From: Candidatus Latescibacterota bacterium | Lineage (GTDB): Bacteria; Latescibacterota; UBA2968 | Direction of reading: 5' to 3' | Assembly (NCBI GenBank): GCA_965205975.1 | Contig: OZ242195.1 | Location: 3,030,656 to 3,094,655, forward strand | Length of the DNA stretch: 64,000 nt | In this document: piece by piece, positions 38,879-61,070 of the stretch | How the letters are laid out: each line of letters opens with the position of its first letter | Numbering within the stretch: position 1 is the first letter of the stretch | The notes under the pieces: generated by a model | What the model saw: only the letters and a program-made list of their open reading frames with translations | What the model was told of the DNA's origin: nothing | Database searches by the model: none | Program-made: the position numbers and the translations under genes

Positions 38879-39363
38879 GGTGACTTTTTTTCCTTTTTAC
38901 AGAAATTTAAGGACGCTATCTCCACTTCGTTGATCATGCGATAAACCACATCTCCAGATTTGTTGCGATCATAAAAACTCAATGGCAACTGGATCAAGTG
39001 GTCGAAAAGATGGCTCCTTATATCCAGCATCATGCGATTGTTTATCCAAGCAAATAGATAGTTTGAGCAAAAACCAATGATGATATTGCCGACTGTAACG
39101 CCCAGGAGCAGAAGCAAAATAAATATCAACAGCTCATAATCTTCATTTGGAAAAACATCATCAATGATAATTTTCATGATATAGGGAAAAGCCAACGAGC
39201 TAACAGTCCCCAGGATCATGAGAACAAAAACAATGCTTTGGTGTATCCAATAAGGTTTCAGAAATTTCAAGAAATGATAAAAGACATGTCCCTGCTTAGA
39301 GAGATTGAAAATGGCTGATATGACTGGTTGTTTGTTCTTCATATTCACCCGTGATGTAAACAA
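38875..39363 (-). pseudogene. Truncated ABC exporter gene. Only the N-terminal transmembrane domain fragment remains, and the reading frame runs into the IS256 right end.
   Basis: MKNKQPVISAIFNLSKQGHVFYHFLKFLKPYWIHQSIVFVLMILGTVSSLAFPYIMKIIIDDV...LPLSFYDRNKSGDVVYRMINEVE is the first about 150 aa of a type-I ABC exporter TMD. The TAG stop is formed by the IS terminal sequence ...GGAGCTAC. No ATPase domain follows. Confidence 0.7.
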
Positions 39364-42074: not shown

Positions 42075-42124
42075 TGGTTACCCTTGGCAATCAAGAGACG
42101 CTTGATCTCAGCTAACTTTCGCCA

Positions 42125-46474: not shown

Positions 46475-46524
46475 TGGTTCTCCTCAGCAATTAGAGGATG
46501 CTTGAGCACACCTCACTTTTACCA

Positions 46525-47652
46525 CTATTCGGCAGGGTTTGCAGGAGCATCAATAAGACGATAAACACGGATATTACCATTCGTATCCTCGTTATCAGAA
46601 GGAGGCGAGTACTTATAAACAAGCCTGCCTTGACAAGTAAAAATATTTCGTTCCAATTCATTGTTTACTTCTTGTGCAGAAGGTTGCACGCTCAGGTCTG
46701 ATAGAAGTATAAGCGCGGTACTATTTGAGGGATCCCTAAAATCGTACCTGAACAAAATATCTCCCGAAGGGAGGAGATGCATTCCGCTTAATCTACTAAA
46801 CTTACCAAAGTTAGGTGGAGGGGAGAATAATCCTGTTTTATCATCATCTAATTTGAGACTGACGAATTTGGGATGATTTGTGGTTATAGGGGGGAGAAAA
46901 TCTCGTGTCGCCAGATCAATTCTCATCACTTTATCTTCCCAAGATAGGGCAAAATATATGATTTCTCGCGCCTCATCATAAGCAAAGCCGTGAGAACGCT
47001 GGAACATAAAAAAAGCCCTCTCGTATTGAGCCTCGCAGACTTTGAACTTTGCAAGGTCTTCACCCGTATCAAGGGAGGTAACGTAAAGCATACCGTTTCC
47101 TTTTCGGTCACCATAAGGATAAATGAGCTTGCGATCTTCAGAAACCACCAGGGGATTAATAAGGCGTCGTTGGGGCAGTTTTAATCGTCCTAAAAATTCA
47201 CCTTGAACGGAGAAGCGAAGCGTCTGCCCAGTCCCGCCATCGTAGATCAGCATTTGTTCGGTATTCGGTATCATCGTTGGCTTGCTCGGTGATTTGTACT
47301 GGCCTTCTCCCTCTCCTCGACTGCCAATAGGCCACTTATAGTTGCCTGCTCTGTCAAAAACTTCGACACAACTTCTTAGAACATCAAAAATAATGATGTA
47401 GTCATCCATCACCGCAATTGAGCTTACCATCCCAAGTGCGGGACCTGTCTCTGGACGTTCGAGTGTAATGCCATCAATTAAAGATAGATGAGCCCCTTGT
47501 GTTTGCACTTTGAGGACGATGACATCTTGTCGCGATTGAAAACTCGCCATCCCATCTTGCTGGTTTTCAACCGCACTTTTTCCGCAACTCCCGCAGATCA
47601 GACACAGAAGTGTCAGCCCCCCTACTTGAACCCATAGCTTGTTGCGAGTCAT
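46525..47652 (-). CDS. 6-bladed beta-propeller lipoprotein (paralog 1).
   Basis: Lipobox LICGSC. Colinear with 42125..43219 (IIIFDVLRSCVEVFDRAGNYKWPIGSRGEGEGQYK...). Confidence 0.6.
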   Translation of the reverse strand: MTRNKLWVQVGGLTLLCLICGSCGKSAVENQQDGMASFQSRQDVIVLKVQTQGAHLSLIDGITLERPETGPALGMVSSIAVMDDYIIIFDVLRSCVEVFDRAGNYKWPIGSRGEGEGQYKSPSKPTMIPNTEQMLIYDGGTGQTLRFSVQGEFLGRLKLPQRRLINPLVVSEDRKLIYPYGDRKGNGMLYVTSLDTGEDLAKFKVCEAQYERAFFMFQRSHGFAYDEAREIIYFALSWEDKVMRIDLATRDFLPPITTNHPKFVSLKLDDDKTGLFSPPPNFGKFSRLSGMHLLPSGDILFRYDFRDPSNSTALILLSDLSVQPSAQEVNNELERNIFTCQGRLVYKYSPPSDNEDTNGNIRVYRLIDAPANPAE

Positions 47653-48977: not shown

Positions 48978-50879
48978 TCAAAAAAAATCAACAACAACAT
49001 CGGCCATCTTTTTACGTCCTTCGGCACTAATTATCTCAGTCGCCGGAATGCGATGTGTTGATTCCAAGTTCAATATCGTTTGACAGATTTCCTCTCTACA
49101 AAGCGGTTGACTCACGACTGTGTTGACCGTGTGATTTACAATTTTTTTCTTATCGCTAAAAACGAGCAGAATAACTTTTCCTTTTCCCAGGCTCTCTAAA
49201 ACTCGGATATTTTCCTGTATAAATTCAGGCTCGTCGATAGAATTAACGAGCAAGACATAAGCATCGGGAACGGTTCCAAAAAGCAAGATCAATGAGGGCA
49301 AAGTGTAACTCTGAGATTTTTCGTAAAAGTTATGAGGTATGATACCGGACTGGCCACCAACGACGATGATATCCGGGTCTGATTGTTCGATACCGACCAT
49401 AGCGGAATTTAGAAGTGGAATGTGCAAATCCATGGGAATCTGGATGCTCTGATGCCCGTCATATCCATTTGGAAATGTAAAATCGAAATCAAATAATGCA
49501 GATTGGTGTTCTGTACCCAATTGACCAACTTTATAGCCAATTTTCTGTAATTGTTTTCTGAGTGCCAATTGAGCAGTGAACTTTCCTTGCTGCGGTCCTG
49601 TTCCAAACACGCCCAAGACAGGTTTCTGGCTTCTGCTTCTCCAATCATAAGTTTTGGTCAAAGCCTCATAAGTTGCAAAATCTATGGTCGGTGCTGCATA
49701 ATGCAGATGTTTTTCTTCAAATGCTTTGCTTATGCTTTCGTATTGCTTATTTGCAATGGGGCTCAGACTATACACATTCTTGTTATGCTTCAATGCCAAT
49801 TCCAAAGATTCTTGTAACACATCGCGTTTCTTAATCCGGCTAATTTCATCCAAATAGCCCAGAACGAGCGTATCGCCGTATTGCAGACAATCTTCCAAAT
49901 TTTGTTGTATGATCAAATTAGATTCGGACCCCCCAATAACCTCCCCACAATCTTTGCCTATGGTTCTTTTTCCAATAACATCAACTACCCTTGTAATTCT
50001 AAACGGCAATAACTCCCGAAACCGCACCAACCCATGCATTTCTTTGTTATAGGGGAAAATAACAGCCTCGTCTATCCAGCTTGGCGCGTTTGCCTTATTG
50101 AGATCGCGGATAGAAACATCTGAGCGAGATCTGGGCATCCCGCTCATCGCATAAGTGCTACTATCTACCAGGTCGGGACATTGACTTAAGGAATGTCTCT
50201 GCAAAATTTCTGTCAGATCGTTGAACGAGATACAACCATATTTCTCTATGATCAGAGCAATCAAGCCGGAAATATGCGGAGCCGCAAAGCTCGATCCCCC
50301 AATAAATATCTGTTTGCCTTCCAGCCAATTTAGGCGTTGACGATCACCCCGTGCGACAAACTGTATTTTTTCGTGCGGGTCATAAAAGTAATCAAACTTG
50401 CCATTAACTTTTCCTCCTGCTACGCCAAAGACATTGGGAAAAGACGCGGGAATACTCGGTTGTCCATCATTTGATGTCGCAGCAACAATGAACGTCTGGT
50501 GTTTGTGTGCAAAATCACAGGCCTCCTTCAAAACATCGCTATCTCTCTCATCCAGAGTACCTAAACTCAAATTGACAATGTGACAGTGATGTTCAACACA
50601 CCAGTAAATCGCCTTGCACAAAATGTCCATTTTCGTTATCAGTTCTGACTTAAAAATTTTGACAGGCAAAAATTCAGTATTTGGAGCTTTGGAGTGGATG
50701 ACGCCAATACAGGCTGTGCCGTGGCCTATCATATCTTGGTAATTTGAATCTTGATCGCCATTACAGAAACTGGTACCATTCAACACATGCACATTTTTTT
50801 TACCCGTATTAAAACCGCTATCAATCACGCCTACCCGGGTACCTGTACCTGTCAACCCAGAAAAAAAATGCTCCATCAA
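48978..50879 (-). CDS. S8-family (subtilisin-like) serine peptidase with no signal peptide or propeptide, fused to an about 330-aa C-terminal domain of unknown function.
   Basis: Catalytic triad blocks VGVIDSG (Asp), HGTACIGVI (His) and GGSSFAAPHISG (Ser), starting at residue about 15. The C-terminal domain contains the glycine-rich VLGVFGTGPQQGKFTAQLA. Confidence 0.75.
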   Translation of the reverse strand: MMEHFFSGLTGTGTRVGVIDSGFNTGKKNVHVLNGTSFCNGDQDSNYQDMIGHGTACIGVIHSKAPNTEFLPVKIFKSELITKMDILCKAIYWCVEHHCHIVNLSLGTLDERDSDVLKEACDFAHKHQTFIVAATSNDGQPSIPASFPNVFGVAGGKVNGKFDYFYDPHEKIQFVARGDRQRLNWLEGKQIFIGGSSFAAPHISGLIALIIEKYGCISFNDLTEILQRHSLSQCPDLVDSSTYAMSGMPRSRSDVSIRDLNKANAPSWIDEAVIFPYNKEMHGLVRFRELLPFRITRVVDVIGKRTIGKDCGEVIGGSESNLIIQQNLEDCLQYGDTLVLGYLDEISRIKKRDVLQESLELALKHNKNVYSLSPIANKQYESISKAFEEKHLHYAAPTIDFATYEALTKTYDWRSRSQKPVLGVFGTGPQQGKFTAQLALRKQLQKIGYKVGQLGTEHQSALFDFDFTFPNGYDGHQSIQIPMDLHIPLLNSAMVGIEQSDPDIIVVGGQSGIIPHNFYEKSQSYTLPSLILLFGTVPDAYVLLVNSIDEPEFIQENIRVLESLGKGKVILLVFSDKKKIVNHTVNTVVSQPLCREEICQTILNLESTHRIPATEIISAEGRKKMADVVVDFF

Positions 50880-51354: not shown

Positions 51355-52722
51355 TCAATATGATGTGTTCTTTAACGCTTCTTCAGCCTTTGCCAAGTTT
51401 ATATTCCGAACACATCCTGAACGGCATTCCCAGCCCACACCTTCATAGTCAGCAATAGCAGCGATTTGCTCTCGCAAAGGATCGTTGCATAAATCAAGAA
51501 CGCGCTTGCCCTTCAAGATGGGTAAAATCGGTATATGAAACGAGGAAATGGGATGTGCGATCAACAGTAGGGAACATTCACATAGCGACTTGAGGGATTT
51601 TGTCAATTGTCCCTGCCACATCTTTCGGGCATCACTTTGAATATAAGTCGGCTCCACGTCCAAGAGGCCCAACTCCACTGACGGGTCATATGCGATCACA
51701 TGATACCCTTCTGAGATGAGCATGTTTCCGAGTTTTACGAATGGACTATCCCTCAAGTCGCCTGTATTGGGCTTAAAACTCAAACCCAACATACCCAGTG
51801 TTCCTCGAACGGCAAGCGACCTTACCCTCCTTACCGTGGACCTGATATGAAGATCATTACTGGCGATGATATTGGTCAGCAGAGGTAATTCGGGTTCTTG
51901 TCGTCCGTTAGATAGCCGCAGGAGTGCTGTAAGATCCTTCGGGAGACAGGATCCTCCGAATGCGAATCCCGGCCTCATGTAGGCTTTTGACATATTGAGC
52001 TTGTTGTCTGAGCACACGACCTCCATTACTCTATTGCTGTCTATCCCGAGATATCTGCAAATATTCGATATCTCATTCGTGAAAGTAACCTTCATAGCAT
52101 GAAAAGCATTGCATACATACTTCACCATTTCAGCGATCTCGTATTCGGTAATGTACACCGGCCCAGCTTCACCGTAAATATCTAACACGCGCTGGTAATA
52201 ACCAGTCTTTGGAGCACCAATGATCCGAATCGGAGGATCATTCAGGTCCTCCATTGCGCTTCCCTCTCTCAAGAACTCCGGATAATACCAGACATTGCCA
52301 AAATTCCCGAAGGCTCCAGAGGCGATATTACGCGTCGTACCGGGCGGAACAGTGCTGCGCAAAACTATGTCAAACATGCCTCTTTTCTTTTTCACTATCT
52401 CTACCAGTGACGTTACGGCCTGATAAAGAAAACACAGATTTGGTACTCCGTCTTTCTCACCTCGCGGCGTACCTACACAGATAATCGCTACACTCGCATC
52501 CTCGACAGCTTTGAAGTAGTCAGTCGAAAGCTGGAGCCTCCCACTTCTAAGTGCTGAACTTAGCAGGTCGCTTACGCGGGGTTCTGGTTCAGGTTCACCG
52601 GCAAAAAGATGGTGGATTCTCTCCTGGGAGACATCCAGACCTGTGACGATATGACCTCGTTCAAGCAAGTAGGCAATATTCACAATGCCGACATGGCCCA
52701 AACCAACTACACAAATTTTCAT
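51355..52722 (-). CDS. NDP-sugar dehydrogenase (UDP-glucose / UDP-ManNAc / GDP-mannose dehydrogenase family).
   Basis: N-terminal Rossmann MKICVVGLGHVGIVNIAYLL and catalytic-Cys block FGGSCLPKDL. 455 aa. Confidence 0.8.
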   Translation of the reverse strand: MKICVVGLGHVGIVNIAYLLERGHIVTGLDVSQERIHHLFAGEPEPEPRVSDLLSSALRSGRLQLSTDYFKAVEDASVAIICVGTPRGEKDGVPNLCFLYQAVTSLVEIVKKKRGMFDIVLRSTVPPGTTRNIASGAFGNFGNVWYYPEFLREGSAMEDLNDPPIRIIGAPKTGYYQRVLDIYGEAGPVYITEYEIAEMVKYVCNAFHAMKVTFTNEISNICRYLGIDSNRVMEVVCSDNKLNMSKAYMRPGFAFGGSCLPKDLTALLRLSNGRQEPELPLLTNIIASNDLHIRSTVRRVRSLAVRGTLGMLGLSFKPNTGDLRDSPFVKLGNMLISEGYHVIAYDPSVELGLLDVEPTYIQSDARKMWQGQLTKSLKSLCECSLLLIAHPISSFHIPILPILKGKRVLDLCNDPLREQIAAIADYEGVGWECRSGCVRNINLAKAEEALKNTSY

Positions 52723-52861: not shown

Positions 52862-53863
52862 CTACTTGGTGAATTTCTGTTGTTCAATACAAGAGACTAT
52901 GACCTCCGTTGTGTCTTCCCACTTTTTATTTTCAGGTTTGACTCGCGGAACTCTATTGCTAAGATTTGCCAATATTTCTTTAGTCACCTTACCAAGATCA
53001 GGGATTATTAATTGTCCACTCTCGACTAATTCTCGGTTTATGCACATTTCCCTTCTTCCAAGATAGATAGTAGGTACTCCTAAGAGAGCCCCTTCCCTTG
53101 CAACAGTATCTCCAGTAGTTACCACCAGGGCTGAATAGTAAATCAGGGAATGGATACTGGGACAAGGTTCAACAACCTTTCGGAAATTGGGGTGTTCAAA
53201 CTCGAGATTTATTCCCCGTTCAAGGGAGGCTATGATGCTCATTCCAGTATTTAAAATCGCATTCGTCGCTTGCATAACTTCTTCCTGACCCAGGCGTCGA
53301 TAGTTCATGCTAATAGGTGCAACATACCTGACGAAAACATACTCTCCTGGCTGAACGCCATAATCACCTAAAATCTTCGGTTGCGGGACGAATCGGTTCA
53401 AGTAAGCCAACTCTTTGAACCCGTTGTATTGAATGATGTTTCTGCCTGCCACTCCGAGTGCTTCAGGTAAGACAAGTTGATGAGCGAATAAAAGACATGG
53501 CCAAAAATTTAGCTTGTATTCGAAGTCGTCATAAAAAATCACAGACCGTACGCGACAAAACCGCGAAACTATGCCCGAATAGAATCCACAACTCGCCAAA
53601 ACATCTGTCTCCATTTCGCATACTATCTTCTTGAGATCAACGACCCTTTCCCATACCCCAAACATCTTTCTAACACCAGTTCTATGAGCACCCATTACAC
53701 GAAAGGAACAAGGGAGGTCTGACTCCGCTATGGCAACAAGGTTACCTCTTTGCCTGACAACAGCCGACACATCGTGTCTCGCCTTCAACGATTTGATGGC
53801 TGAATTAAAAAAATTGAGATGTGCGACGTGAAGAATGTCAAAGAGAATCTTCAAAGGTAGCAT
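52862..53863 (-). CDS. DUF354-family protein (GT-B/epimerase-like fold, common in sugar-modification loci).
   Basis: The N-terminal LKILFDILHVAHLNFF matches the DUF354 (W)IDI.N.PHV.FF pattern. 333 aa. Confidence 0.45.
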   Translation of the reverse strand: MLPLKILFDILHVAHLNFFNSAIKSLKARHDVSAVVRQRGNLVAIAESDLPCSFRVMGAHRTGVRKMFGVWERVVDLKKIVCEMETDVLASCGFYSGIVSRFCRVRSVIFYDDFEYKLNFWPCLLFAHQLVLPEALGVAGRNIIQYNGFKELAYLNRFVPQPKILGDYGVQPGEYVFVRYVAPISMNYRRLGQEEVMQATNAILNTGMSIIASLERGINLEFEHPNFRKVVEPCPSIHSLIYYSALVVTTGDTVAREGALLGVPTIYLGRREMCINRELVESGQLIIPDLGKVTKEILANLSNRVPRVKPENKKWEDTTEVIVSCIEQQKFTK

Positions 53864-54137: not shown

Positions 54138-54154
54138 CTTTATCTCTTTATGGT

Positions 54155-55594
54155 TTACGAGGTTATTTCCAGATTATATCGTCGCTGCAACAAAGACGCA
54201 TCCTCTTCTGCAATCTCCATACACATCTCCATCGCCAGTTCATAGCGATAACGTGTCTGTTCACAAGCAACAGGGTTGGGGTACATCGGGTCCCCCGTCG
54301 TCGTCCGAGCATCCCAAAGACATCCACCACCACACAGATTGCGCGCCCAGCATGTCTTGCACTCTGGGCGATTATTCACATTGAACTGCGCGTCAAAATG
54401 CTGCTGCTTTTCGCGATCAATACCCACAAACACATCACCCATCTTAAACTCGGGTGCATCGGCCAGACTCGAGCAAAAATAAATTGATCCATCTGCTGCA
54501 ATAGCCAGATACTGCTTACCACCCAGGCATCCATGACAGGATTTTGCGCGCGTCAGCAATTTCTGAATCCGCGGATCAAACTCTTCACTCTCTTCACCAT
54601 TCAGAATAGCTTTGAGCGCACGGCGGCTCCGCCTGTAAATTTGTTGTTTCAAAACAGGTATGTGTTCTTCCCGAATGGCATAAGGCGCATCGGGGGAGAC
54701 AACCGCCGGACCGATGAGCGCGTTATCAGTACCCAATGAGCGCAAATCATCGGCAATCTCATCCTCATCCATATCATACGCTGTCATAATAGCTTGCAGG
54801 TACACGCGCTCAGGTGCCTCAGCAGTCAATTTCTGTACATTCTTTGCCACGACATCATAAGTACCAGAACCATTGTGAAACTTGCGAATACGGTCCTGTG
54901 TCTTACGTCCGCCATCCAGGCTGACTTTAATTTGAAACTTTTCATCGATCAAGAACTGCTTCATCTCGTCGGTCAACAGCGTGCCATTGGTCACAATGCC
55001 AAAACCAACCTGCACTCCCAGGCACGCGCCCAGAGATTTGGCAAATGGGACAAGCTCTCTCATCAATGGAAAATTCAGAAGCGGCTCCCCGCCAAAAAAA
55101 TCAATCTGGCACCGCCCCAAAGCCTGAGCTTCGGTGATGATCCAGCGTATCGATTGCTCGGCAACATCGGGTTGCATCAGCATCGCCTTACCGCCATAAT
55201 CCCCGCCATGTGCAAAGCAATAAGCACACTGAATATTGCATGTATGCGAAACGTGCAGCGACACCTGCAAACGATCTGTCTGTGATACCCCACAAGCTGC
55301 CACCCCTTCTGTCGTCGGCACCTGGGACACCAGAAGCAATGCACCATCCGCAATCAACCCCACCTGTGCCAATTCCTCAATAGCCTCGGCAATTTCCTCT
55401 GCCTCGTATTGATCGGCCAACGTCTGGACAACCTGTGAAGCAGATAAGCCCTCGCAACATTCTAAAATTGATTTGAAAAGGGGATCCAGTTCAAAAAACA
55501 GACCTGTCTCAATCTGATAGACAATCGGCTGATTTTGCTCTTCAGTTTGAAAAAGATGTATGTCGCATTTCTGAATGCATAGCATGCCAGGCAC
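54155..55594 (-). CDS. Radical SAM / SPASM-domain enzyme (peptide-modifying maturase or anSME-like).
   Basis: CNIQCAYC (CxxxCxxC) radical-SAM cluster motif. C-terminal SPASM cysteine array CHGCLGGKQY...FCSS...CKTCWARNLCGGGCLWD. 479 aa. Confidence 0.8.
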   Translation of the reverse strand: MPGMLCIQKCDIHLFQTEEQNQPIVYQIETGLFFELDPLFKSILECCEGLSASQVVQTLADQYEAEEIAEAIEELAQVGLIADGALLLVSQVPTTEGVAACGVSQTDRLQVSLHVSHTCNIQCAYCFAHGGDYGGKAMLMQPDVAEQSIRWIITEAQALGRCQIDFFGGEPLLNFPLMRELVPFAKSLGACLGVQVGFGIVTNGTLLTDEMKQFLIDEKFQIKVSLDGGRKTQDRIRKFHNGSGTYDVVAKNVQKLTAEAPERVYLQAIMTAYDMDEDEIADDLRSLGTDNALIGPAVVSPDAPYAIREEHIPVLKQQIYRRSRRALKAILNGEESEEFDPRIQKLLTRAKSCHGCLGGKQYLAIAADGSIYFCSSLADAPEFKMGDVFVGIDREKQQHFDAQFNVNNRPECKTCWARNLCGGGCLWDARTTTGDPMYPNPVACEQTRYRYELAMEMCMEIAEEDASLLQRRYNLEITS

Positions 55595-55613
55595 TCCTCA
55601 GAACAGATACAAT

Positions 55614-55790
55614 TTACTCAGGCTGATCAAAATTGTCCCAATCGTCATCATCAGGGAACGGCATGGGGGGAACAGTAATAGGATAAGGGGTACAGCCAAC
55701 TTCAAAACTATCCGTCGTCTGATATGTGCTAATACCACCCTCTTTATCCATTGTTCCATTGATCAAGATCAACTTGCGTCGAGTCGTCAT
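55614..55790 (-). CDS. Unannotated 58-aa ORF, putative precursor peptide for the adjacent radical-SAM/SPASM enzyme.
   Basis: GGAGGATAAT-ATG RBS. Translation MTTRRKLILINGTMDKEGGISTYQTTDSFEVGCTPYPITVPPMPFPDDDDWDNFDQPE. Ends 20 nt before the rSAM start codon. Below the 60-aa cutoff of the ORF track. Confidence 0.55.
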   Translation of the reverse strand: MTTRRKLILINGTMDKEGGISTYQTTDSFEVGCTPYPITVPPMPFPDDDDWDNFDQPE

Positions 55791-55849
55791 ATTATCCTCC
55801 TTAAATACAAAAATCTAAATGTCGTCATTGTCTTCGCTCCGTTTATATC

Positions 55850-55864
55850 GCAAGATCCGTGCCT
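55850..55864 (-). promoter_or_regulatory. Sigma-54 (-24/-12) promoter upstream of the peptide and rSAM operon.
   Basis: The minus strand reads AGGCACGGATCTTGC, which fits GG-N10-GC with TTGC at -12 (consensus TGGCAC-N5-TTGC). About 60 nt upstream of the peptide ATG. Confidence 0.55.
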
Positions 55865-55880
55865 AATAATGCATTAGCAT

Positions 55881-55920
55881 AAAAAAAAGCACTTAAAAAC
55901 TCTCAAGTGCTTGAAAAAAC
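55881..55920 (-). terminator. Rho-independent terminator downstream of the sigma-54 activator gene.
   Basis: On the minus strand, AAGCACUUGAGAGUUUUUAAGUGCUU followed by U8. Flanked by A/T runs on both sides. Confidence 0.6.
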
Positions 55921-55970
55921 AAGGAAATAAAATTTAAAAATTATTTGTACTGTAAATGCGGCATCCAGAT

Positions 55971-55999
55971 ATATGTGTACCTAATAGATACACATATAA
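55971..55999. promoter_or_regulatory. Palindrome ATATGTGTA-N9-TACACATAT, candidate enhancer (UAS) for the sigma-54 activator.
   Basis: Perfect 9-bp inverted arms about 110-140 bp upstream of the sigma-54 promoter, in an extremely AT-rich region. Confidence 0.4.
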
Positions 56000-56103
56000 C
56001 CGTTCATTTAGATAAAATATGCATAACCGATTGATTAATATAAAAATAAATTAAAGTGCATCTAAATGATACATTATTGTAAAATGATACACCCATTCAA
56101 CAT

Positions 56104-59100
56104 CTATCTCAACCCCAGACGATTCATCTTTCTATACAAGCTGGCGCGCACCAACCCCAGTTCTTCGGCCGTACGCTTAATATTACCCTCGTATTTTTCG
56201 AGCGCATCCATAATCAACCGTTTCTCATACTCCTGCATACTATCTTTTAAATGTCCCTGGTATTCGACAGAGACACCCGACATCGCGTGGCCGACAGCTT
56301 CCGAAAACAAATCGGGCGTAATTGCACCATCTTCTTCTACCAATGCAACCGCACGCCGAATCTCATTCTCCAACTCGCGCACATTACCCGGCCAGTTGTA
56401 ATTTGTAAGTGCCCTGATTGCACCTACTGTCAGCCCGCCAACCGACTTGTTTGCCTCTTCCTTTGCCCGAATGAGCAAATGTTCGGCCAATAACGGCACA
56501 TCTTCCATGCGTTCTCGTAAAGGCGGCATATCGATCTGAATCACGTGCAACCGATAATACAAATCTTCGCGGAAAGAGCCTTTTTCTACTTCTTTTTTTA
56601 AGTCTCGATTGGTCGCTGCAATAATGCGTACATCTACTGCGCGATCCTCTGTTTCTCCCACACGCCTAATCTCTCCTTCTTGCAACACCCGCAACAAACT
56701 CCTTTGCAATGGTGGCGGGGCATCGCCGATTTCATCTAAAAAGACCGTACCCCCATTAGCCGTCTCAAAAACCCCCTTATGATCTTCAGTCGCGCCAGTA
56801 AACGCCCCTTTTTTATGACCAAACAACTCACTCTGCAACAGCTCTGGTGAAAGGGCAGCACAATTTTGCGACAAAAAACGCTGGTCTTTACGTGTACTAT
56901 TGTAGTGTATGGAACGCGCAGCTAATTCTTTGCCAGTACCTGTTTTGCCTTGCACAAGCACGGGAATATCGCTTTTTGCCGCACGTTCTATAAGCCGGTA
57001 GATCGCCTGCATCGCATCACTTTGCCCAAACAGATCGCCAAGCTGGTGCTGTCTTTCGACCTCTTGCTGCAAATATCGCGCTTTCTCTTCCAATTGTTCG
57101 TACATCCTCGCATTGACCAGTGCTACACCCACCAGATTCGCAAATGCTTGTAAAAACGTCTGGTCTGCTTCAGAAAATGCGTTGCCTATGCCGCGATGAT
57201 CCACATATAGGGCACCCATTACACCTTCGCTAACATGAAATAGAGGCACACACAATACAGACCGAATGTTGTAGTCTATCACACTCTGATATTGATTTAG
57301 CCTATCGTCTGTTTGTGCATCAAGGCTCAAAACGGGTTCATTTGTTTCAATAACCCGACGAATAATACCCCCACTCAATTCTTCTGCATCATTCGATTCT
57401 AAATTGTGGTGGCGCACCACATCAACTACAAAGTCTTTTGGAGTCTCATTTTTAATCGCAACAATCACCCGCTCTGCTGAATAGACAGCCAACAAATTGC
57501 CCAAAGTTCCATCCAATAGCACCTTGACATCGTGCTCTGTTGTTAATTCCTGGCTCATATCATAGAGCAAATTCCAACGATCAACAGACAACGCACCAAC
57601 TGGAACCTCAGAACTGGATACGGTATCCTCACCGCGATGGAGCGTTGGAGCGGCATCCCTGCCGCGACCATCTTCGTCGCGAGATAATTGATTTAATAAC
57701 ACCTGTGTTTTCTCCAAAAAATAGGACATTTCCATTTCCTCAAACGCCTGTTTTGCCGCTTCGAGATGTGCTTGCGCTTTTGGCATATCATCGCGCTGGA
57801 GATAAAACTCCCCAGCCATCAGCAATGCCCGCGCCCAGTGGTCGCCTTTGGATTCTCTGCGACATTCAATTGCCTGCTCAAAAGCCTCTTCAGCCTCAGC
57901 AATTCGCCCTGCCTGAGCAAAAGCCGCACCAATACCGCAATATACCAGGGGCAATATGCCTGTGTACATACCCGATATTTGTTGCGTACCTTCTTTGGCT
58001 TTTTCAGCCCATTCAAGTGCTGTTTCACCATTTCCCATTCTCGCAGCAGCCGTTGCCGCAATTGCATAAGCGCGATAGATATAATCTTTTCGCGGTGTTT
58101 CCAAAAATCGCTCTGATGAAATCTCGGCATATTCCAATGCCTCGGCAAAATCATCGCGTTCCAGAGCCAATTCCCCAAGCCATAGGAAATTTGCTGCTTC
58201 CCAATACACACCCCCTCGCTTCTGCCACTCACCAATGACCTCATAACAAACGGCTTCAGCACCATTGAAATCCCCCAAATAAAAATAAATTCTTTGAAGT
58301 GCATTGAGTGCCCAAACGCGATGGTGCTCTAAACCAAGTTGTCTAAAGATCTTTACAACAGTTTCTAAATAGCCCTTAGCTGTCTCAAATCGAAATTCCA
58401 CTAATGCGGCCTGGCCTTCTCGTCCTTGTATAAAAGCCTGGTTTTGTGGATCTCCCGACTCACGGAGTTTCTCTATTTCCCGACGCATATACGCAATTGA
58501 TTCTTCGTGCCGACCAGACACATCACACAAATAAGACAAGCTGCTTAACGCCTGAATTTCGCCATCGAAATCACCGAGTTCACGATAAAGCTGCAATGCC
58601 TCCAGCATATATCCTTCTGCAATTTCACCATGTTGAAGTACGCTGTGAATCTCACCCTGGTCGTTTAAAATACGCGCTTTCAAATCTTTCCGATCAGCGG
58701 GCAATAATGCATTTGCTTCGTCTAAAAGTTTTAGTGCGCAATTGTATTCACTACAATTGCGAAACACATCTGCATAATCGCACAAAAAATCGATAGCATC
58801 TGCAGGTAATTCAAAAACGTCATCCGCTGTCCAGTCCCTCACTGCCTCGAACCGTCTCAATGCCTGGCGATACGCTTGTACCTCCAATGCTTTTTTACCC
58901 GCCAGACACATATATTTCACAGCCTTATCTCGTTCTTCTGCCGCCGCAAAATGATCCGCCAATTCTTCCGTCAATTCTTCTGCATCACCCGTCTCTTCCA
59001 GAGCATTGCCAATTTCTCGATGCAACAGACGCCGCCGCACATCTTGCATGCGGTCATAAATTGCACGCCGACACAAATCCTGTGAAAATCGATAGCGGTC

Positions 59101-60186
59101 TTCATCCTCTCCACAAGCAGCCAAAAGCCCTTCCGCAATCAAGTCATCCAGCATATCCAGCAATTCTAACTCATCACCGCGCCAAACTGCAGCCAATAAT
59201 TCGAAAGAAAAATCACTTAAAAAAACACAGGCGTATTCCAGCACCCGCTGTTGCATAGCAGGCAGGGTTGCTATGCGCCTGTACAAAACCTCTGAAAAGT
59301 CATTGGATAATAATGTTTCGGGAAACTCTCCCCACTGCCAATCGCCAGACACATCTTGCCGAACCACATCGGCATGCACCAGTGTCCTTATCGCCTCCAC
59401 GACAAACAGGGGTTGTCCGCCTGTTTCTCTGAACAGGGTTTGCAATGCATCCGACGGTATGGATCGCTCCCCTAACATCGACGCCGCTAAATATCCCACC
59501 TCTTCTTGTTGTAGATACTCCAACTGCATCTGGGTCGCTTCAGCAAATTCATTACTATGTATAAAATTCTCAATTTCCTCTGAAAGCGGTTCCAGATTAG
59601 ACCATCGGCAAGTCAGACATAACAAAAACGGGCACGGTTCTGGATCGCGCAACACATACTGCAAAAATTCCAGAGTCAATTCATCAAGCCATTGAATATC
59701 TTCCAAACACAACACAATGGGCTGTTTCTGTCGCAGACTTTTTAGTAACTGCAACCAGCGCTCCATAACAGAAAACTTGTCGGTCTCTAATGAATCGGGC
59801 AACTCTGCCATCAAATCCGTCGTCCCTTGAAAAGCCCTGATCAACGCACCGTATATTTGTCCGCCCTCTTCCTGCCCTGCGCCCTTCAAACATAGAAAAT
59901 CGTGGATCAGAGCGTCGCCCAACAGTTCTTCGGCCAGTCTCGATTTACCTACTCCCGCCTCACCCGAGATCAAAACCACGCGCTGCTTGCCAGCCTGTAC
60001 ATCCTGTAACATCGCACTCAGTATCTTCATTTCAGATTCCCGCCCGACAAATTGTGGGCGCACAACTTTTCTATGCACATCGCGCTGCTCGTCCTCCAGC
60101 AGCACAAGCTCCGATGGTAAGGCACGTACCAGTTCCTCTGCCGACTGATAACGATCAACACGCTCCTTTGCCAGCAACTTCAGCAC
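56104..60186 (-). CDS. Sigma-54-dependent transcriptional activator with a giant N-terminal sensor: STAND/AAA ATPase, TPR-like array, GAF, sigma-54 AAA+, Fis-type HTH. It is the C-terminal 1360 aa of a frameshift-split kinase fusion.
   Basis: P-loop VVLISGEAGVGKSRLAEELL. A long TPR-like helical-repeat region. GAF-like segment about residues 880-1030. Sigma-54 interaction domain VLVQGKTGTGKELAARSIHYNS...GAFTGA...GGTVFLDEIGD. C-terminal HTH IKRTAEELGLVRASLYRKMNRLGL. The first residues LKLLAKERVDRYQSAEELVRAL are the end of a protein-kinase domain. Confidence 0.75.
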   Translation of the reverse strand: MLKLLAKERVDRYQSAEELVRALPSELVLLEDEQRDVHRKVVRPQFVGRESEMKILSAMLQDVQAGKQRVVLISGEAGVGKSRLAEELLGDALIHDFLCLKGAGQEEGGQIYGALIRAFQGTTDLMAELPDSLETDKFSVMERWLQLLKSLRQKQPIVLCLEDIQWLDELTLEFLQYVLRDPEPCPFLLCLTCRWSNLEPLSEEIENFIHSNEFAEATQMQLEYLQQEEVGYLAASMLGERSIPSDALQTLFRETGGQPLFVVEAIRTLVHADVVRQDVSGDWQWGEFPETLLSNDFSEVLYRRIATLPAMQQRVLEYACVFLSDFSFELLAAVWRGDELELLDMLDDLIAEGLLAACGEDEDRYRFSQDLCRRAIYDRMQDVRRRLLHREIGNALEETGDAEELTEELADHFAAAEERDKAVKYMCLAGKKALEVQAYRQALRRFEAVRDWTADDVFELPADAIDFLCDYADVFRNCSEYNCALKLLDEANALLPADRKDLKARILNDQGEIHSVLQHGEIAEGYMLEALQLYRELGDFDGEIQALSSLSYLCDVSGRHEESIAYMRREIEKLRESGDPQNQAFIQGREGQAALVEFRFETAKGYLETVVKIFRQLGLEHHRVWALNALQRIYFYLGDFNGAEAVCYEVIGEWQKRGGVYWEAANFLWLGELALERDDFAEALEYAEISSERFLETPRKDYIYRAYAIAATAAARMGNGETALEWAEKAKEGTQQISGMYTGILPLVYCGIGAAFAQAGRIAEAEEAFEQAIECRRESKGDHWARALLMAGEFYLQRDDMPKAQAHLEAAKQAFEEMEMSYFLEKTQVLLNQLSRDEDGRGRDAAPTLHRGEDTVSSSEVPVGALSVDRWNLLYDMSQELTTEHDVKVLLDGTLGNLLAVYSAERVIVAIKNETPKDFVVDVVRHHNLESNDAEELSGGIIRRVIETNEPVLSLDAQTDDRLNQYQSVIDYNIRSVLCVPLFHVSEGVMGALYVDHRGIGNAFSEADQTFLQAFANLVGVALVNARMYEQLEEKARYLQQEVERQHQLGDLFGQSDAMQAIYRLIERAAKSDIPVLVQGKTGTGKELAARSIHYNSTRKDQRFLSQNCAALSPELLQSELFGHKKGAFTGATEDHKGVFETANGGTVFLDEIGDAPPPLQRSLLRVLQEGEIRRVGETEDRAVDVRIIAATNRDLKKEVEKGSFREDLYYRLHVIQIDMPPLRERMEDVPLLAEHLLIRAKEEANKSVGGLTVGAIRALTNYNWPGNVRELENEIRRAVALVEEDGAITPDLFSEAVGHAMSGVSVEYQGHLKDSMQEYEKRLIMDALEKYEGNIKRTAEELGLVRASLYRKMNRLGLR

Positions 60187-60961
60187 AATTTGTTGCGTCT
60201 CTTCGGGAACAGCGATATTGAACTTCGCCTATTGGTGGAGGTGACTCTCGAATATGCTTCATAATAACAGATATGGGATTTTGTCCAGAAAAGGGCGATG
60301 CGTCCGTGAGGACTTCGTATAAAATCACACCCAATGAGTACAAATCTGACCGATGATCCACCCACAACCCCTTACCCTGCTCTGGCGACATATATTCTGC
60401 CGTACCAATCGTTGCACCCGTCTGAGTAATGGAAGCACTGTGCAAATGTCTGAATTTCGCCAATCCCAGGTCCAGAATCGTGGTTTCAATCCCCTCTTTT
60501 GTCTCCAAAACCATAATATTGGATGGCTTGAGATCGCGATGCACTGCACCCTGAGCGTGGACATAAGCCAATCCATCGGCAATTTGTTGTATCAAGTCAA
60601 AAAAGTGAGACGTCCGGAATTGCTCTAACAGTACACGATCGGCAATAATTTTTTCCAATGTCTTTCCGGGCAAATATTCCATTGTAAAATAGGGACGGTC
60701 TTTGGCAAAGCCCCAGGTGTATGTGCGAACCAGACGCGGGTGCTGGAATCGGTTCAACACCTGAAACTCTCTGTGAAAACGACGGCGCACAGCCTGCTCA
60801 TCCATCATTTCATTCAAAATTTTGAGCGCGCAATCCCGATCTTGCTCCAGGTCCAAAACCCGATACACTTCACCCATGCCCCCGGCTCCCAGGTGCGCCT
60901 GGATCTGGTATCTTTTGTCGAGAATTGTGCCAATTTCGAACATACGCGTTATTCTTTGCAA
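60155..60961 (-). CDS. Ser/Thr protein kinase catalytic domain (Hanks-type), N-terminal part of the same gene as 56104..60186, across a frameshift.
   Basis: GAGGMGEVYRV...ALK (ATP-binding Lys), HRDLKPSNIM, DLGLAKF and GTAEYMSPEQ. The last about 20 residues of this frame are non-kinase-like. The kinase C-lobe end (AKFNIAVPEETQQIVLKLLAKERVDRYQSAEEL) continues in the frame of the downstream ORF. Confidence 0.8.
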   Translation of the reverse strand: MQRITRMFEIGTILDKRYQIQAHLGAGGMGEVYRVLDLEQDRDCALKILNEMMDEQAVRRRFHREFQVLNRFQHPRLVRTYTWGFAKDRPYFTMEYLPGKTLEKIIADRVLLEQFRTSHFFDLIQQIADGLAYVHAQGAVHRDLKPSNIMVLETKEGIETTILDLGLAKFRHLHSASITQTGATIGTAEYMSPEQGKGLWVDHRSDLYSLGVILYEVLTDASPFSGQNPISVIMKHIRESPPPIGEVQYRCSRRDATNCAEVAGKGAC

Positions 60962-61070
60962 GTTTTGATTGATATGTGAGATTAATAATGCGTAAGATTC
61001 AGAATTTTTTCAACCTTTTTGGCGACACGGGGCGCAGTTTGTTCTGTTGTATTTTTCAGACCCATCAATT

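What the first reader, a model, noticed from the sequence alone, without database searches (positions are those of the whole stretch)
56104..60961. Ser/Thr kinase, STAND ATPase, TPR, GAF and sigma-54 activator encoded as one frameshift-split 1600-aa gene
The kinase ORF and the bEBP ORF overlap by about 30 nt in different frames. The kinase C-lobe terminus (AKFNIAVPEETQQIVLKLLAKERVDRYQSAEEL) is completed only in the bEBP frame. That localises a +/-1 frameshift to about 60190-60245.

A Hanks kinase fused through a MalT/PknK-like STAND and TPR module and a GAF domain to a sigma-54 AAA+ activator is an unusual signalling architecture. PknK-type proteins normally end in a LuxR HTH. The gene sits directly upstream of a sigma-54 promoter.
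Basis: seen in the sequence. Interest (0 to 1): 0.7.

Follow-up and report, generated by a model that had tools for sequence, protein, structure and literature searches.

The report
Frameshifted giant kinase–sigma-54 activator gene
One extra T splits a 1612-residue regulator gene (protein kinase, STAND ATPase, TPR, GAF and sigma-54 activator) that belongs to a large uncharacterised family; in sponge-symbiont genomes each copy sits next to, and probably switches on, its own small modified-peptide operon.

Summary
Two minus-strand ORFs (60943..60155 and 60186..56104) overlap by 32 nt in different frames. They are one gene broken by a single duplicated T at 60221/60222. Removing it restores a 1612-aa ORF with no other lesion.

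Pfam confirms every domain: Pkinase (spanning the break), AAA_16 STAND, TPR, GAF, Sigma54_activat and HTH_8.

The architecture is not rare. More than 120 intact ~1600-aa homologues (80-87% identical) occur in Poribacteria/"Latescibacterota" sponge-symbiont MAGs, at two or three sampled copies per genome. At least 83 clusters at 50% identity carry kinase plus bEBP.

The sigma-54 promoter is real (55864-55850) and conserved in 27 loci. It drives a 58-aa peptide gene and a PqqD-RRE/radical-SAM/SPASM maturase. Three upstream palindromes covary with the regulator's HTH recognition helix, which fits a dedicated activator of a RiPP-like cassette.

No orthologue or paralogue shares this frameshift, so programmed recoding is rejected. 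A genuine recent mutation and an assembly error cannot be separated without reads. I lean towards genuine: a syntenic orthologue carries a different 1-nt insertion 53 nt away, and all five single-site frame-breaking lesions seen in the family lie in the 5' quarter of the gene. The frameshift is ordinary; the family and its cassette are moderately interesting.

The parts
56104..60943 (-). Whole regulator gene as reconstructed. It gives 1612 aa once one T is removed. ATG at 60943, stop TAG at 56106-56104.
   Evidence: Deleting one T gives a 1612-codon ORF with no internal stop, 92% aa identity to the intact orthologue P0126, and dN/dS of 0.14.
60155..60943 (-). 5' ORF in the kinase frame. Residues 1-241 are authentic. 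An out-of-frame tail (QYRCSRRDATNCAEVAGKGAC) follows to the TGA at 60157-60155.
60221..60222 (-). The lesion: a TT where every other copy has a single base (1-nt insertion in codon 241, Val).
   Evidence: It is unique among 27 aligned copies.
56104..60186 (-). 3' ORF as listed (GTG at 60186, 1360 aa). This frame is open from 60228, just after the TAG at 60231-60229. No convincing Shine-Dalgarno sequence precedes the GTG.
60133..60910 (-). Hanks-type Ser/Thr kinase domain (residues 12-270). Motifs: GAGGMG, ALK (Lys41), HRDLKPSN, DLG, SPE.
   Evidence: Pkinase, 4.4e-46; PknB, 1e-50; motifs.
59635..60054 (-). STAND NTPase (AAA_16, residues 297-436). Walker A GEAGVGKS, Walker B IVLCLED.
57739..58560 (-). 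TPR / MalT-like repeat region (residues ~795-1068). This is the most variable part of the family.
   Evidence: TPR_12 58 bits; TPR_MalT 40.1, below its cutoff of 45. (conservation 0.66-0.74 against ~0.86 elsewhere).
57118..57534 (-). GAF domain (residues 1137-1275).
   Evidence: GAF 2e-12, GAF_2 9.5e-12.
56293..57030 (-). Sigma-54 interaction AAA+ domain plus lid (residues 1305-1550). Walker A GKTGTGKE, GAFTGA loop, Walker B VFLDEI.
   Evidence: 1.3e-74; ZraR, 3e-83.
56119..56235 (-). Fis-type HTH_8 DNA-binding domain (residues 1570-1608). Recognition helix VRASLYRKMNRL.
56056..56093 (-). Two tandem candidate enhancer (UAS) sites: GGTGTATCATTTTACAATAATGTATCATTTAGATGCAC.
   Evidence: conserved position in 27 loci; half-site covaries with the HTH helix; coordinates.
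56011..56043 (-). Conserved AT-rich block. It contains an IHF-like motif, AATCAATCGGTTA (WATCAR-N4-TTR).
   Evidence: The motif sits at a fixed position, -172 +/-2 from the promoter, in 26 of 27 loci (17 of 27 on the strict pattern). The IHF reading is inference only.
55973..55995 (-). Third candidate UAS, a palindrome: ATGTGTAtctattaggTACACAT.
55881..55912 (-). Intrinsic-terminator-like hairpin (11 pairs) plus T8. It lies between the regulator gene and the sigma-54 promoter.
   Evidence: -13.4 kcal/mol, z = -2.7; terminator scan; conserved in 27 loci.
55850..55864 (-). Sigma-54-type -24/-12 promoter: AGGCACGGATCTTGC.
   Evidence: Searches show xGGCAC-N5-TTGC at the same aligned position in all 27 cassette loci (GGCACG in 26). 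One search shows TGGTACGCGAATTGC in a homologue locus at 42% identity.
55614..55790 (-). 58-aa candidate RiPP precursor (RBS AAGGAGG at 55802-55796). It has a conserved leader, one invariant Cys, a 6-residue hypervariable stretch and a conserved VPP.PFPDDDDWD tail.
54155..55594 (-). Radical-SAM/SPASM peptide maturase with an N-terminal PqqD-like RRE (CNIQCAYC cluster motif).
   Evidence: Radical_SAM, PqqD, SPASM. (best matches are the SCIFF, QhpD, Nif11 and PapB maturases, all below equivalog cutoffs).

Best explanation
Window 60943..56104 (minus strand) is a single gene for a 1612-residue cytoplasmic one-component regulator. Its domain order is Hanks Ser/Thr kinase, STAND (AAA_16) NTPase, TPR sensor, GAF, sigma-54-activating AAA+ domain, then Fis-type HTH.

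In this assembly a one-base duplication (T to TT, 60221/60222) in codon 241 cuts the gene into two ORFs. The first is a kinase fragment lacking the last ~30 residues of the C-lobe. The second is a 1360-aa remainder with no convincing ribosome-binding site.

Proposed function of the intact protein (inferred, not shown):
- It binds three palindromic sites lying between its own stop codon and a terminator.
- It assembles through its STAND and AAA+ modules when the TPR/GAF sensors are satisfied.
- It uses ATP hydrolysis and its GAFTGA loop to open the sigma-54 promoter 240 nt downstream.
- That promoter transcribes a 58-aa precursor peptide and its radical-SAM/SPASM maturase.

Regulator plus promoter plus peptide plus maturase forms a cassette. 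It recurs two or three times among the sampled loci of single Poribacteria-type sponge-symbiont genomes, with matched HTH/UAS specificity classes and hypervariable peptide cores.

The frameshift is specific to this genome and recent. I judge it more likely a genuine inactivating or kinase-uncoupling mutation than an assembly error. It is not programmed recoding.
For: One gene, one lesion:
- there is a single extra T relative to two intact orthologues at 90.5% DNA identity, and removing it restores a clean 1612-aa ORF.
- the kinase domain spans the junction.

Family:
- more than 120 intact ~1600-aa homologues.
- two to three sampled copies per genome in chromosome-level MAGs.
- 83 kinase-plus-bEBP representatives at 50% clustering.

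Target operon:
- promoter, RBS, peptide, and RRE-rSAM-SPASM maturase.
- the same order and spacing in 27 loci.
- the same layout beside a homologue at only 42% identity.

Direct regulator-site link:
- the HTH helix ..GLQKK.. pairs with GTGCATC (11 loci), TRVGLHKK mostly with GTGTATC (7 loci; 2 more carry GTGTAA/GTGTATA), and ..SLYRK.. with TGTATCAT (6 loci).

Active-site motifs are intact in all three enzymatic domains. The kinase, NTPase, GAF and AAA+ domains are the most conserved parts across 118 intact copies; TPR and HTH are the most variable.

In favour of a genuine mutation:
- the syntenic orthologue L062 is split by a different 1-nt insertion (A to AA) 53 nt upstream. Its contig name carries a '24x' tag.
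- another syntenic orthologue, L063, is truncated after 733 aa, and this form is seen on 3 contigs.
- paralogues L015, L020 (7-nt deletion), L021, L029, L031, L032 and L034 carry independent lesions.
- All five single-site frame-breaking lesions lie in the first ~1310 of 4839 nt. The chance of this under a uniform distribution is about 0.27^5 = 0.0014, my arithmetic. Random sequencing error would not be expected to produce that pattern.
- the window also lacks the ~1.25 kb (Peptidase_M28 gene plus the regulator's upstream region) present in four syntenic loci.
- an IS-disrupted ABC-transporter gene elsewhere in the window shows that real gene decay occurs in this genome.
Against: No reads are available, so a consensus error cannot be excluded.

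There are no secondary lesions. The window-specific branch shows no relaxation of constraint: N:S is 6:20 in the kinase and 33:64 in the rest, similar to the intact L001 branch. The lesion is therefore either very young or not real.

The HTH/UAS covariation involves elements less than 300 bp apart. Linked inheritance or recombination could preserve the pairing without independent co-evolution.

DNA binding, sigma-54 dependence, kinase activity, the signal sensed and the peptide modification are all untested. The presence of rpoN in this genome was not checked.

The clustering statistic rests on five events and was noticed after the fact.
Confidence: 0.6

Rival explanations
1. Assembly or sequencing artefact. 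The organism carries an intact 1612-aa gene, and the extra T is a consensus error in the MAG.
For: There is exactly one lesion and no secondary damage. dN/dS is 0.14 overall and 0.08 in the kinase. The window-branch N:S ratio is indistinguishable from that of the intact orthologue. Related assemblies include low-coverage contigs, for example a '3x' tag on L001. Single-base indels are the typical residual error of long-read assemblies (general knowledge).
Against: The TT context is not a homopolymer run. Independent lesions occur in orthologues and paralogues, including a 7-nt deletion, kilobase deletions and a second 1-nt insertion in a contig tagged 24x. All small lesions fall in the 5' 27% of the gene, which random error does not predict. 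The adjacent 1.25-kb deletion shows real change at this locus.
Confidence: 0.35
2. Functional gene fission. The frameshift is genuine and tolerated or favoured. The STAND-TPR-GAF-bEBP part is still translated (GTG 60186 or a later start) and runs the cassette without its kinase, while the truncated kinase is lost.
For: All five small lesions spare the 3' three-quarters of the gene. The 3' ORF shows no decay. Shorter natural relatives exist among the representatives: stand-gaf-ebp, tpr-gaf-ebp and gaf-ebp forms of ~500-1000 aa, which could be either genuine shorter forms or fragments. Removing N-terminal regulatory domains often leaves bEBPs active (established for NtrC1/DctD/XylR-type bEBPs; general knowledge).
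Against: There is no Shine-Dalgarno sequence before GTG 60186, unlike the AAGGAGG before the peptide gene. The kinase is among the most conserved domains in 118 intact copies, so it is normally needed. The lesions are young enough that absence of decay proves little.
Confidence: 0.12
3. Programmed +1 ribosomal frameshifting joins the two ORFs into one protein.
For: Only the geometry supports it: the two frames overlap, and a +1 shift anywhere between 60228 and 60158 would restore the protein.
Against: None of 26 other aligned copies has the extra base. The syntenic orthologue L062 is broken at a different site. Inspection found no slippery or stall motif and no conserved stimulatory element. 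More than 120 homologues encode the protein in a single frame.
Confidence: 0.02
4. Two unrelated neighbouring genes (a small kinase and a separate bEBP) that merely overlap. A variant of this rival is that the STAND module marks an Avs-like anti-phage defence gene rather than a transcription regulator.
For: A gene caller did call the 1360-aa ORF separately (P0014). STAND-plus-TPR architecture is common in defence systems (general knowledge).
Against: The kinase HMM and the PknB alignment run across the junction, and orthologues are a single ORF. PADLOC gives only generic kinase-domain (PD-T4-6) and RtcR-type AAA hits in the 25 best of 40 families listed, with no STAND/Avs model among them. The C-terminus has every bEBP hallmark and a cognate promoter.
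Confidence: 0.02

Closest known systems
TOMM system kinase/cyclase fusion protein (NCBIfam TIGR03903). This is the 'large Ser/Thr kinase' that accompanies NHLP-Burk precursors in Burkholderia, Acidovorax and Delftia (Haft et al. 2010, PMC2887384).
   Same: It is a giant cytoplasmic protein that starts with a Hanks kinase followed by an AAA_16/TPR STAND module, and it is encoded next to a RiPP precursor and its maturase. It is the best named non-bEBP NCBIfam hit (297 bits). The paper's Figure 2 legend notes the association.
   Different: The score is far below the family cutoff (297 against 705.75). Its output is a nucleotide cyclase, whereas here it is GAF plus sigma-54 AAA+ plus HTH_8. Its neighbouring chemistry is cyclodehydratase (TOMM), whereas here it is radical SAM/SPASM.
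GAF-containing bEBPs: NifA, NorR, FhlA.
   Same: The C-terminal ~490 residues have the same GAF-AAA+-HTH_8 order, with the GAFTGA loop and Walker motifs. Matches are NifA 394 bits and NorR 367 bits, with the solved NifA (9qq6) and ZraR (1ojl) structures as best PDB matches.
   Different: All scores are below the equivalog cutoffs. Some 1100 extra N-terminal residues (kinase, STAND, TPR) are absent from those proteins. The target is a peptide/rSAM operon, not nif, nor or hyc genes.
STAND signal-transduction ATPases with TPR sensors: MalT and the LAL family, and M. tuberculosis PknK (from memory, not tested here).
   Same: They share an AAA_16 P-loop NTPase followed by a MalT-like TPR arm. PknK also has an N-terminal Hanks kinase. 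Ligand- and ATP-driven oligomerisation is the accepted MalT mechanism, and it would suit a bEBP that must form a ring.
   Different: MalT and LAL regulators end in a LuxR-type HTH and act on sigma-70 promoters. PknK has no DNA-binding domain. The TPR_MalT match here is below threshold (40.1 against 45).
HstK-type dual kinases of cyanobacteria (Ser/Thr kinase ... GAF ... His-kinase; from memory).
   Same: They share the design logic: an N-terminal Hanks kinase, a central sensory region with GAF, and a C-terminal output module in one polypeptide.
   Different: Their output is a histidine kinase rather than a sigma-54 activator. This was not compared computationally here.
Sigma-54/EBP control of natural-product gene clusters in Myxococcus (PMC7910581; title and abstract only).
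   Same: It is a precedent for sigma-54 promoters and EBPs directly regulating secondary-metabolite genes.
   Different: Those are PKS/NRPS clusters with conventional EBPs. They are not a kinase-STAND fusion dedicated to a one-peptide RiPP cassette.

Membership tests
Bacterial enhancer-binding proteins (sigma-54 activators) | AAA+ domain matching Sigma54_activat above the curated threshold | tested here: met
   PF00158 scores 249.9 bits against a cutoff of 20.2, residues 1305-1470.
Bacterial enhancer-binding proteins (sigma-54 activators) | GAFTGA sigma-54 contact loop and Walker A/B motifs | tested here: met
   GAFTGA at residue 1379, GKTGTGKE at 1332, VFLDEI at 1400.
Bacterial enhancer-binding proteins (sigma-54 activators) | C-terminal Fis-type HTH and cognate upstream sites near a -24/-12 promoter | tested here: met
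   HTH_8 scores 45.3 bits against a cutoff of 22. The promoter is AGGCACGGATCTTGC. Three palindromes lie roughly 110-230 nt upstream of the -24 element and covary with the HTH helix. This is in silico evidence only.
Bacterial enhancer-binding proteins (sigma-54 activators) | ATP-dependent activation of sigma-54 holoenzyme; rpoN present in the genome | not tested
   This needs biochemistry. The window's genome beyond these 64 kb was not available to search for rpoN.
Hanks-type Ser/Thr protein kinases | Pkinase domain with Gly-loop, catalytic Lys, HRD, DFG-like and APE-like motifs | tested here: met
   PF00069 scores 157.9 bits. Motifs found: GAGGMG, ALK, HRDLKPSN, DLG, SPE.
Hanks-type Ser/Thr protein kinases | Complete kinase fold encoded in one reading frame | tested here: not met
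   In this window the frame breaks at codon 241 of a ~273-residue domain. The feature is met in orthologues P0124 and P0126.
STAND NTPases (AAA_16 / MalT-like) | P-loop NTPase with Walker A/B followed by a repeat (TPR) sensor arm | tested here: met
   AAA_16 scores 88.8 bits against a cutoff of 32.6, with GEAGVGKS and IVLCLED. TPR_12 scores 58 bits against 30.1. TPR_MalT itself, at 40.1 bits, is below its cutoff of 45.
TIGR03903 TOMM system kinase/cyclase fusion protein | Whole-protein score at or above the curated cutoff; a cyclase output domain; a TOMM cyclodehydratase neighbour | tested here: not met
   The score is 297 bits against a cutoff of 705.75. No cyclase domain appears among the Pfam hits listed. 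The neighbour is an rSAM/SPASM enzyme.
NifA / NorR equivalogs | Score at or above the equivalog cutoff | tested here: not met
   NifA scores 394.5 against 528.85 and NorR 366.7 against 476.
Programmed ribosomal frameshift (recoding) site | Frameshift conserved in orthologues, with a slippery or stall motif | tested here: not met
   The extra T is absent from all 26 other aligned copies. L062 is broken at another site. Inspection found no slippery motif.
Radical-SAM/SPASM RiPP maturases (neighbouring gene) | CX3CX2C cluster, SPASM domain, PqqD-like RRE, and an adjacent small precursor ORF | tested here: met
   CNIQCAYC motif. Radical_SAM 57.8 bits, PqqD 27.5 bits (cutoff 23.4), SPASM 23.5 bits (cutoff 21.5). 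A 58-aa ORF lies 19 nt upstream.
SCIFF / QhpD / PapB thioether maturase equivalogs (neighbouring gene) | Score at or above the equivalog cutoff | tested here: not met
   Scores are 266.5 against 425, 254.7 against 453, and 224.5 against 340. The gene is related to these families but is not a member of any named one.
Anti-phage STAND (Avs-like) defence proteins | Match to a defence STAND model | tested here: not met
   PADLOC gives only kinase-domain (PD-T4-6) and RtcR-type AAA+ hits among the 25 best of 40 families listed. No STAND/Avs model is among them.

The most novel reading that the evidence does not exclude
Each cassette is an insulated, self-contained peptide-signalling circuit.

- The variable TPR arm of each regulator senses the matured product of its own hypervariable peptide (or a cognate host or neighbour cue).
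- STAND-driven oligomerisation assembles the bEBP ring on paralogue-specific enhancers.
- The kinase broadcasts the state to other targets.

On this reading, the recurrent small frameshifts confined to the 5' quarter of the gene are selected events. They would uncouple or silence individual circuits without destroying the activator. That would give sponge symbionts a birth-and-death repertoire of orthogonal sigma-54 switches.
Probability: 0.12. Interest if true: 0.75.

Novelty: new variant of a known kind. Interest (0 to 1): 0.45.

Why it matters
The frameshift alone matters little. It is either a recent pseudogene or a consensus error.

What it exposed is more useful: a large, uncharacterised family in which a eukaryote-like kinase, a STAND oligomerisation switch and a sigma-54 activator form one polypeptide. 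Each copy is hard-wired to a minimal modified-peptide operon.

The family offers three things.
- It provides a testable model for how STAND-type assembly could drive the ring formation a bEBP needs.
- It supplies natural sets of apparently orthogonal regulator/enhancer pairs (Q, H and Y helix classes against GTGCAT, GTGTAT and GTGTAA sites). These could be useful for sigma-54 synthetic biology.
- It gives a regulatory handle for activating cryptic radical-SAM RiPP clusters from uncultivated sponge symbionts in heterologous hosts.

Tried and rejected
- **Programmed frameshift.** Rejected, because the extra base is unique to this window.
- **Two independent genes.** Rejected, because the domain spans the junction and orthologues are intact.
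- **Defence-system reading.** PADLOC gave only generic domain hits.
- **Other frameshifts in the window as a gauge of assembly quality.** The one other overlapping same-strand pair, 22793..24499 and 24408..25103, is two distinct genes (sulfatase and rhodanese). No second case was found, but the check was not systematic.
- **Literature.** Searches on Poribacteria plus sigma-54 plus kinase, Pkinase plus Sigma54_activat, bEBP plus STAND plus kinase, 'myxobacterial kinome', and Poribacteria plus radical SAM or ranthipeptide found no description of this fusion or cassette. The library lacks most subscription journals, so this is weak evidence of absence.
- **Locating the window's own genome record.** Exact look-ups of P0014, P0039 and P0079 found nothing on record.
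- **Full-length query to the representative search.** The C-terminal 1200 aa were used instead.
- **Branch-specific N:S counts as a test for relaxed constraint.** No signal was found.
- **Whether HTH/UAS classes are monophyletic.** They are not. However, physical linkage of the two elements prevents counting independent co-switches.

Full report
**1. The observation**

The minus strand carries a 268-codon ORF (60961..60155; the plausible start is ATG 60943, 'MFEIGTIL') and a 1360-codon ORF (60186..56104). They overlap by 32 nt in different frames. Three-frame translation shows the kinase frame reading ...MKHIRESPPPIGEVQYRCS...GAC*. The other frame has a TAG at 60231-60229 and then reads ...NIAVPEETQQIVLKLLAKERVDRYQSAEEL.

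**2. Locating and typing the lesion**

A search with the reconstructed protein returned more than 120 full-length proteins of ~1600 aa at 80-87% identity and 100% coverage. It also returned the window's own 1360-aa ORF (P0014) on a 5,559,252-bp contig. P0014's 90% cluster contains two intact proteins, P0126 (1616 aa) and P0124 (1639 aa).

Their loci, L001 and L002, are 90.5% identical in DNA to window 60944..54151. The gene alignment shows only two indels. One is an in-frame 12-nt difference. The other is a single extra T in the window: GCGAAGTTCAAT against GCGAAG-TCAAT.

The extra base is 60221 or 60222, in codon 241. Deleting it gives a 1612-codon ORF with no stop, 92% aa identity to P0126, and dN/dS of 0.14 (0.08 in the kinase). 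The true junction is ...PPPIGEV|NIAVPEE....

**3. Domains**

Pfam on the reconstruction gives the following:

| Domain | Residues | Note |
|---|---|---|
| Pkinase | 12-270 | crosses the break |
| AAA_16 | 297-436 | |
| TPR_12 / TPR_MalT | ~795-1068 | TPR_MalT is below its cutoff |
| GAF | 1137-1275 | |
| Sigma54_activat | 1305-1470 | |
| AAA_lid_14 | 1476-1550 | |
| HTH_8 | 1570-1608 | |

- The catalytic and nucleotide-binding motifs of all three enzymatic modules are present. So is the GAFTGA loop.
- The best solved relatives are ZraR, NifA, FleQ and NtrC1 for the C-terminus, and PknB (residues 8-273) for the N-terminus.
- The 5' ORF alone would lack the last ~30 residues of the kinase C-lobe.

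**4. How common is the architecture?**

- A scan of species-representative genomes found 33 close loci, almost all in MAGs labelled Candidatus Latescibacterota or Poribacteria. Several are chromosome-level assemblies. Two or three copies were sampled per genome.
- A full HMMER pass over 1.84 billion representatives at 50% identity, using the C-terminal 1200 aa, listed 149 proteins besides the family's own representative. Of these, 83 (1487-2180 aa, plus two shorter ones) contain both a kinase and a bEBP module.
- One of them is annotated from Candidatus Polarisedimenticolia.
- The fusion is therefore a widespread database family, annotated only as 'protein kinase' or 'sigma 54-interacting transcriptional regulator'.
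- I found no paper describing it, but the searchable library is incomplete.

**5. What lies downstream**

The following elements follow the stop codon on the minus strand:

| Element | Coordinates | Sequence or detail |
|---|---|---|
| Two tandem palindromic sites | 56093-56056 | candidate enhancers |
| AT-rich block with IHF-like motif | 56043-56011 | AATCAATCGGTTA |
| Third palindrome | 55995-55973 | ATGTGTA-N9-TACACAT |
| Hairpin plus T8 terminator | 55912-55881 | -13.4 kcal/mol |
| Sigma-54-type promoter | 55864-55850 | AGGCACGGATCTTGC |
| Ribosome-binding site | 55802-55796 | AAGGAGG |
| Peptide ORF | 55790..55614 | 58 aa |
| Downstream ORF | 55594..54155 | 479 aa |

The 479-aa protein has a PqqD-like RiPP recognition element, a radical-SAM core (CNIQCAYC) and a SPASM domain. 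It is closest to the thioether-forming SCIFF, QhpD, Nif11 and PapB maturases but falls below all their cutoffs.

**6. The cassette is conserved**

- In 28 of the 33 close loci returned by the genome scan (L003-L035), and also in L001 and L002, an rSAM protein 87-92% identical to the window's follows the regulator.
- In all 27 aligned loci the same elements occur in the same order and spacing. GGCAC-N5-TTGC sits at one aligned position in every locus.
- The peptides share a leader (M.TRRKLTLINGTID.EG), a single invariant Cys, a six-residue hypervariable stretch and a conserved VPPLPFPDDDDWDDF tail.
- A homologue at only 42% identity (P0128, L060) has the same plan: terminator, TGGTACGCGAATTGC, a 61-aa ORF and a PqqD/rSAM gene.
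- A 33%-identical homologue (P0143, L061) has no such neighbour. The architecture is therefore also used with other targets.

**7. Evidence that the regulator acts on this promoter**

The half-site of all three palindromes changes together between loci and tracks the HTH recognition helix.

| HTH helix | Half-site | Loci |
|---|---|---|
| TRAGLQKKINRL (one locus TRVGLQKK) | GTGCATC | 11 |
| TRVGLHKKINRL | GTGTATC | 7 |
| [VA]R[AI]SLYRK[MI]N[RS]L | [GA]TGTATCAT | 6, including the window |
| TRVGLHKK or TRVGLYKKIDRL | GTGTAA | 3 (L011, L026, L017) |

The classes are scattered on a tree of the GAF-AAA+ region. This means either repeated co-switching or exchange of the physically linked HTH-plus-UAS segment. 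Either way, matched pairs are maintained.

Across 118 intact copies, the TPR arm (0.66-0.74) and the HTH (0.75-0.77) are the least conserved parts. The kinase, NTPase, GAF and AAA+ domains are the most conserved (0.85-0.87). That fits variable input and address with conserved engines.

The mechanism itself is inferred from the established behaviour of MalT-type STAND proteins and bEBPs. It runs from signal sensing by TPR/GAF, through STAND- and AAA+-mediated assembly, to ATP-driven opening of the sigma-54 promoter. It was not shown here.

**8. Nature of the frameshift**

It is not conserved. All 26 other aligned copies have one base at this position, so programmed recoding is rejected.

Other copies are damaged in different ways:
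- L015 has +G in a G-run near residue 295.
- L020 has a 7-nt deletion near residue 430.
- L021 has T5 reduced to T4 near residue 430.
- L029 has lost residues 715-1185 in frame.
- L031, L032 and L034 have large deletions or truncations.

The syntenic orthologues are the most telling.
- L062 has the same NMT1_3-DctM-Peptidase_M28 upstream genes, is 86% identical, and its contig is tagged 24x. It is split into 290-aa and 1370-aa ORFs by a different single-base duplication (CCC-ATATC to CCCAATATC), 53 nt upstream of the window's site. It too has no other lesion.
- L063 ends after 733 aa and lacks the cassette.

All five single-site frame-breaking lesions lie in the first ~1310 of 4839 nt. Under a uniform distribution the chance is about 0.0014. 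This is a post-hoc figure from five events.

The window also lacks ~1.25 kb present in four syntenic loci, namely the Peptidase_M28 gene and the regulator's upstream region. Only 127 nt separate the DctM stop (61071) from the ATG at 60943.

Against a long-standing pseudogene, window-branch substitutions show no relaxed constraint (N:S 6:20 in the kinase and 33:64 in the rest).

My estimates are: genuine recent mutation ~0.6, including ~0.1 for a tolerated fission with the 3' part still expressed; assembly error ~0.35; recoding ~0.02. Only the reads can settle it.

**9. Comparison with known systems**

The nearest named relative for the N-terminal two-thirds is the 'TOMM system kinase/cyclase fusion protein'. 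It scores 297 bits against a cutoff of 705.75. It is the large Ser/Thr kinase noted beside NHLP-Burk RiPP precursors by Haft et al..

The C-terminal third resembles the NifA/NorR-type GAF bEBPs, again below their cutoffs. The protein is a member of the broad bEBP, Hanks-kinase and STAND superfamilies. It is not a member of any named equivalog.

PADLOC gives no defence-STAND match among the hits listed.

**10. Verdict**

The frameshift is an ordinary single-base lesion of unresolved authenticity. The architecture is a database-common but, as far as I could find, undescribed variant of known signalling modules. The added value is the conserved, multi-copy regulator-sigma-54 promoter-peptide-rSAM cassette with matched HTH and enhancer classes.

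Noticed in passing
window 60944-61070; compare L002 4683-6068, and the same region in L001, L062 and L063: The window lacks the divergently oriented Peptidase_M28 gene and the regulator's upstream intergenic region (~1.25 kb). These are present in all four syntenic loci. Only 127 nt of unrelated sequence separate the DctM stop from the regulator's ATG. The DctM C-terminus also carries a ~20-aa internal difference.
   Followed up: partly
L062 6001-10957 (ERZ25069412, contig ctg853855_24x): The syntenic orthologue is also split, into 290-aa and 1370-aa ORFs. The cause is a different 1-nt insertion (A to AA in CCCAATATC), 53 nt upstream of the window's site. Removing it restores a clean 1607-aa ORF.
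   Followed up: yes
L063 6001-8202 (three contigs carry the same product): Another syntenic orthologue ends after 733 aa (kinase plus STAND only). Unrelated genes follow it, and the peptide/rSAM cassette is absent.
   Followed up: partly
window 54151 and below (52862..53863 DUF354; 51355..52722 UDP-glucose dehydrogenase); compare L001 8787-12725: Homology to L001 and L002 stops exactly at the end of the rSAM gene. Those loci continue with a second radical-SAM gene (573 aa), a 78-aa ORF, an ABC ATPase and a Golvesin_C protein. The window instead has sugar-metabolism genes.
   Followed up: no
window 37640..38824 and 38875..39363 (minus strand): A Mutator/IS256-family transposase gene (4e-126) lies directly beside a 162-aa ORF that is only the N-terminal part of an ABC_membrane domain. 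This is apparently an IS-disrupted ABC transporter.
   Followed up: no
window 20418-20432 (minus strand): This is the only perfect TGGCAC-N5-TTGC match in the window (TGGCACGGTGTTTGC). It sits in the gap between the penicillin-amidase gene (20435..22771) and ORF 19230..20318, about 100 nt upstream of that ORF's start. It may be a second sigma-54 promoter.
   Followed up: no
window 39573..43219 and 43994..47652 (minus strand): There is a tandem duplication of a gene pair. Each pair has a MacB/FtsX-type permease (833 and 826 aa) followed by a 6-bladed beta-propeller DUF5128 protein (364 and 375 aa).
   Followed up: no
window 56011-56043, and the aligned position in 26 other loci: An IHF-like motif (WATCAR-N4-TTR; AATCAATCGGTTA in the window) sits at a fixed distance, -172 +/-2 nt from the promoter's -24 element. 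It lies between the enhancer-like palindromes.
   Followed up: partly
window 48978..50879 (minus strand): A single 633-aa ORF combines an N-terminal subtilase (Peptidase_S8) domain with a C-terminal DUF1611 P-loop domain. This is an unusual pairing and was not examined further.
   Followed up: no
L029 4001-7267; L020 ~5300; L021 ~5296; L015 ~4915: Paralogues in other genomes carry independent lesions. L029 has lost residues 715-1185 (the TPR arm) in frame. L020 and L021 are broken within 11 nt of each other, by a 7-nt deletion and a T5-to-T4 change respectively.
   Followed up: partly
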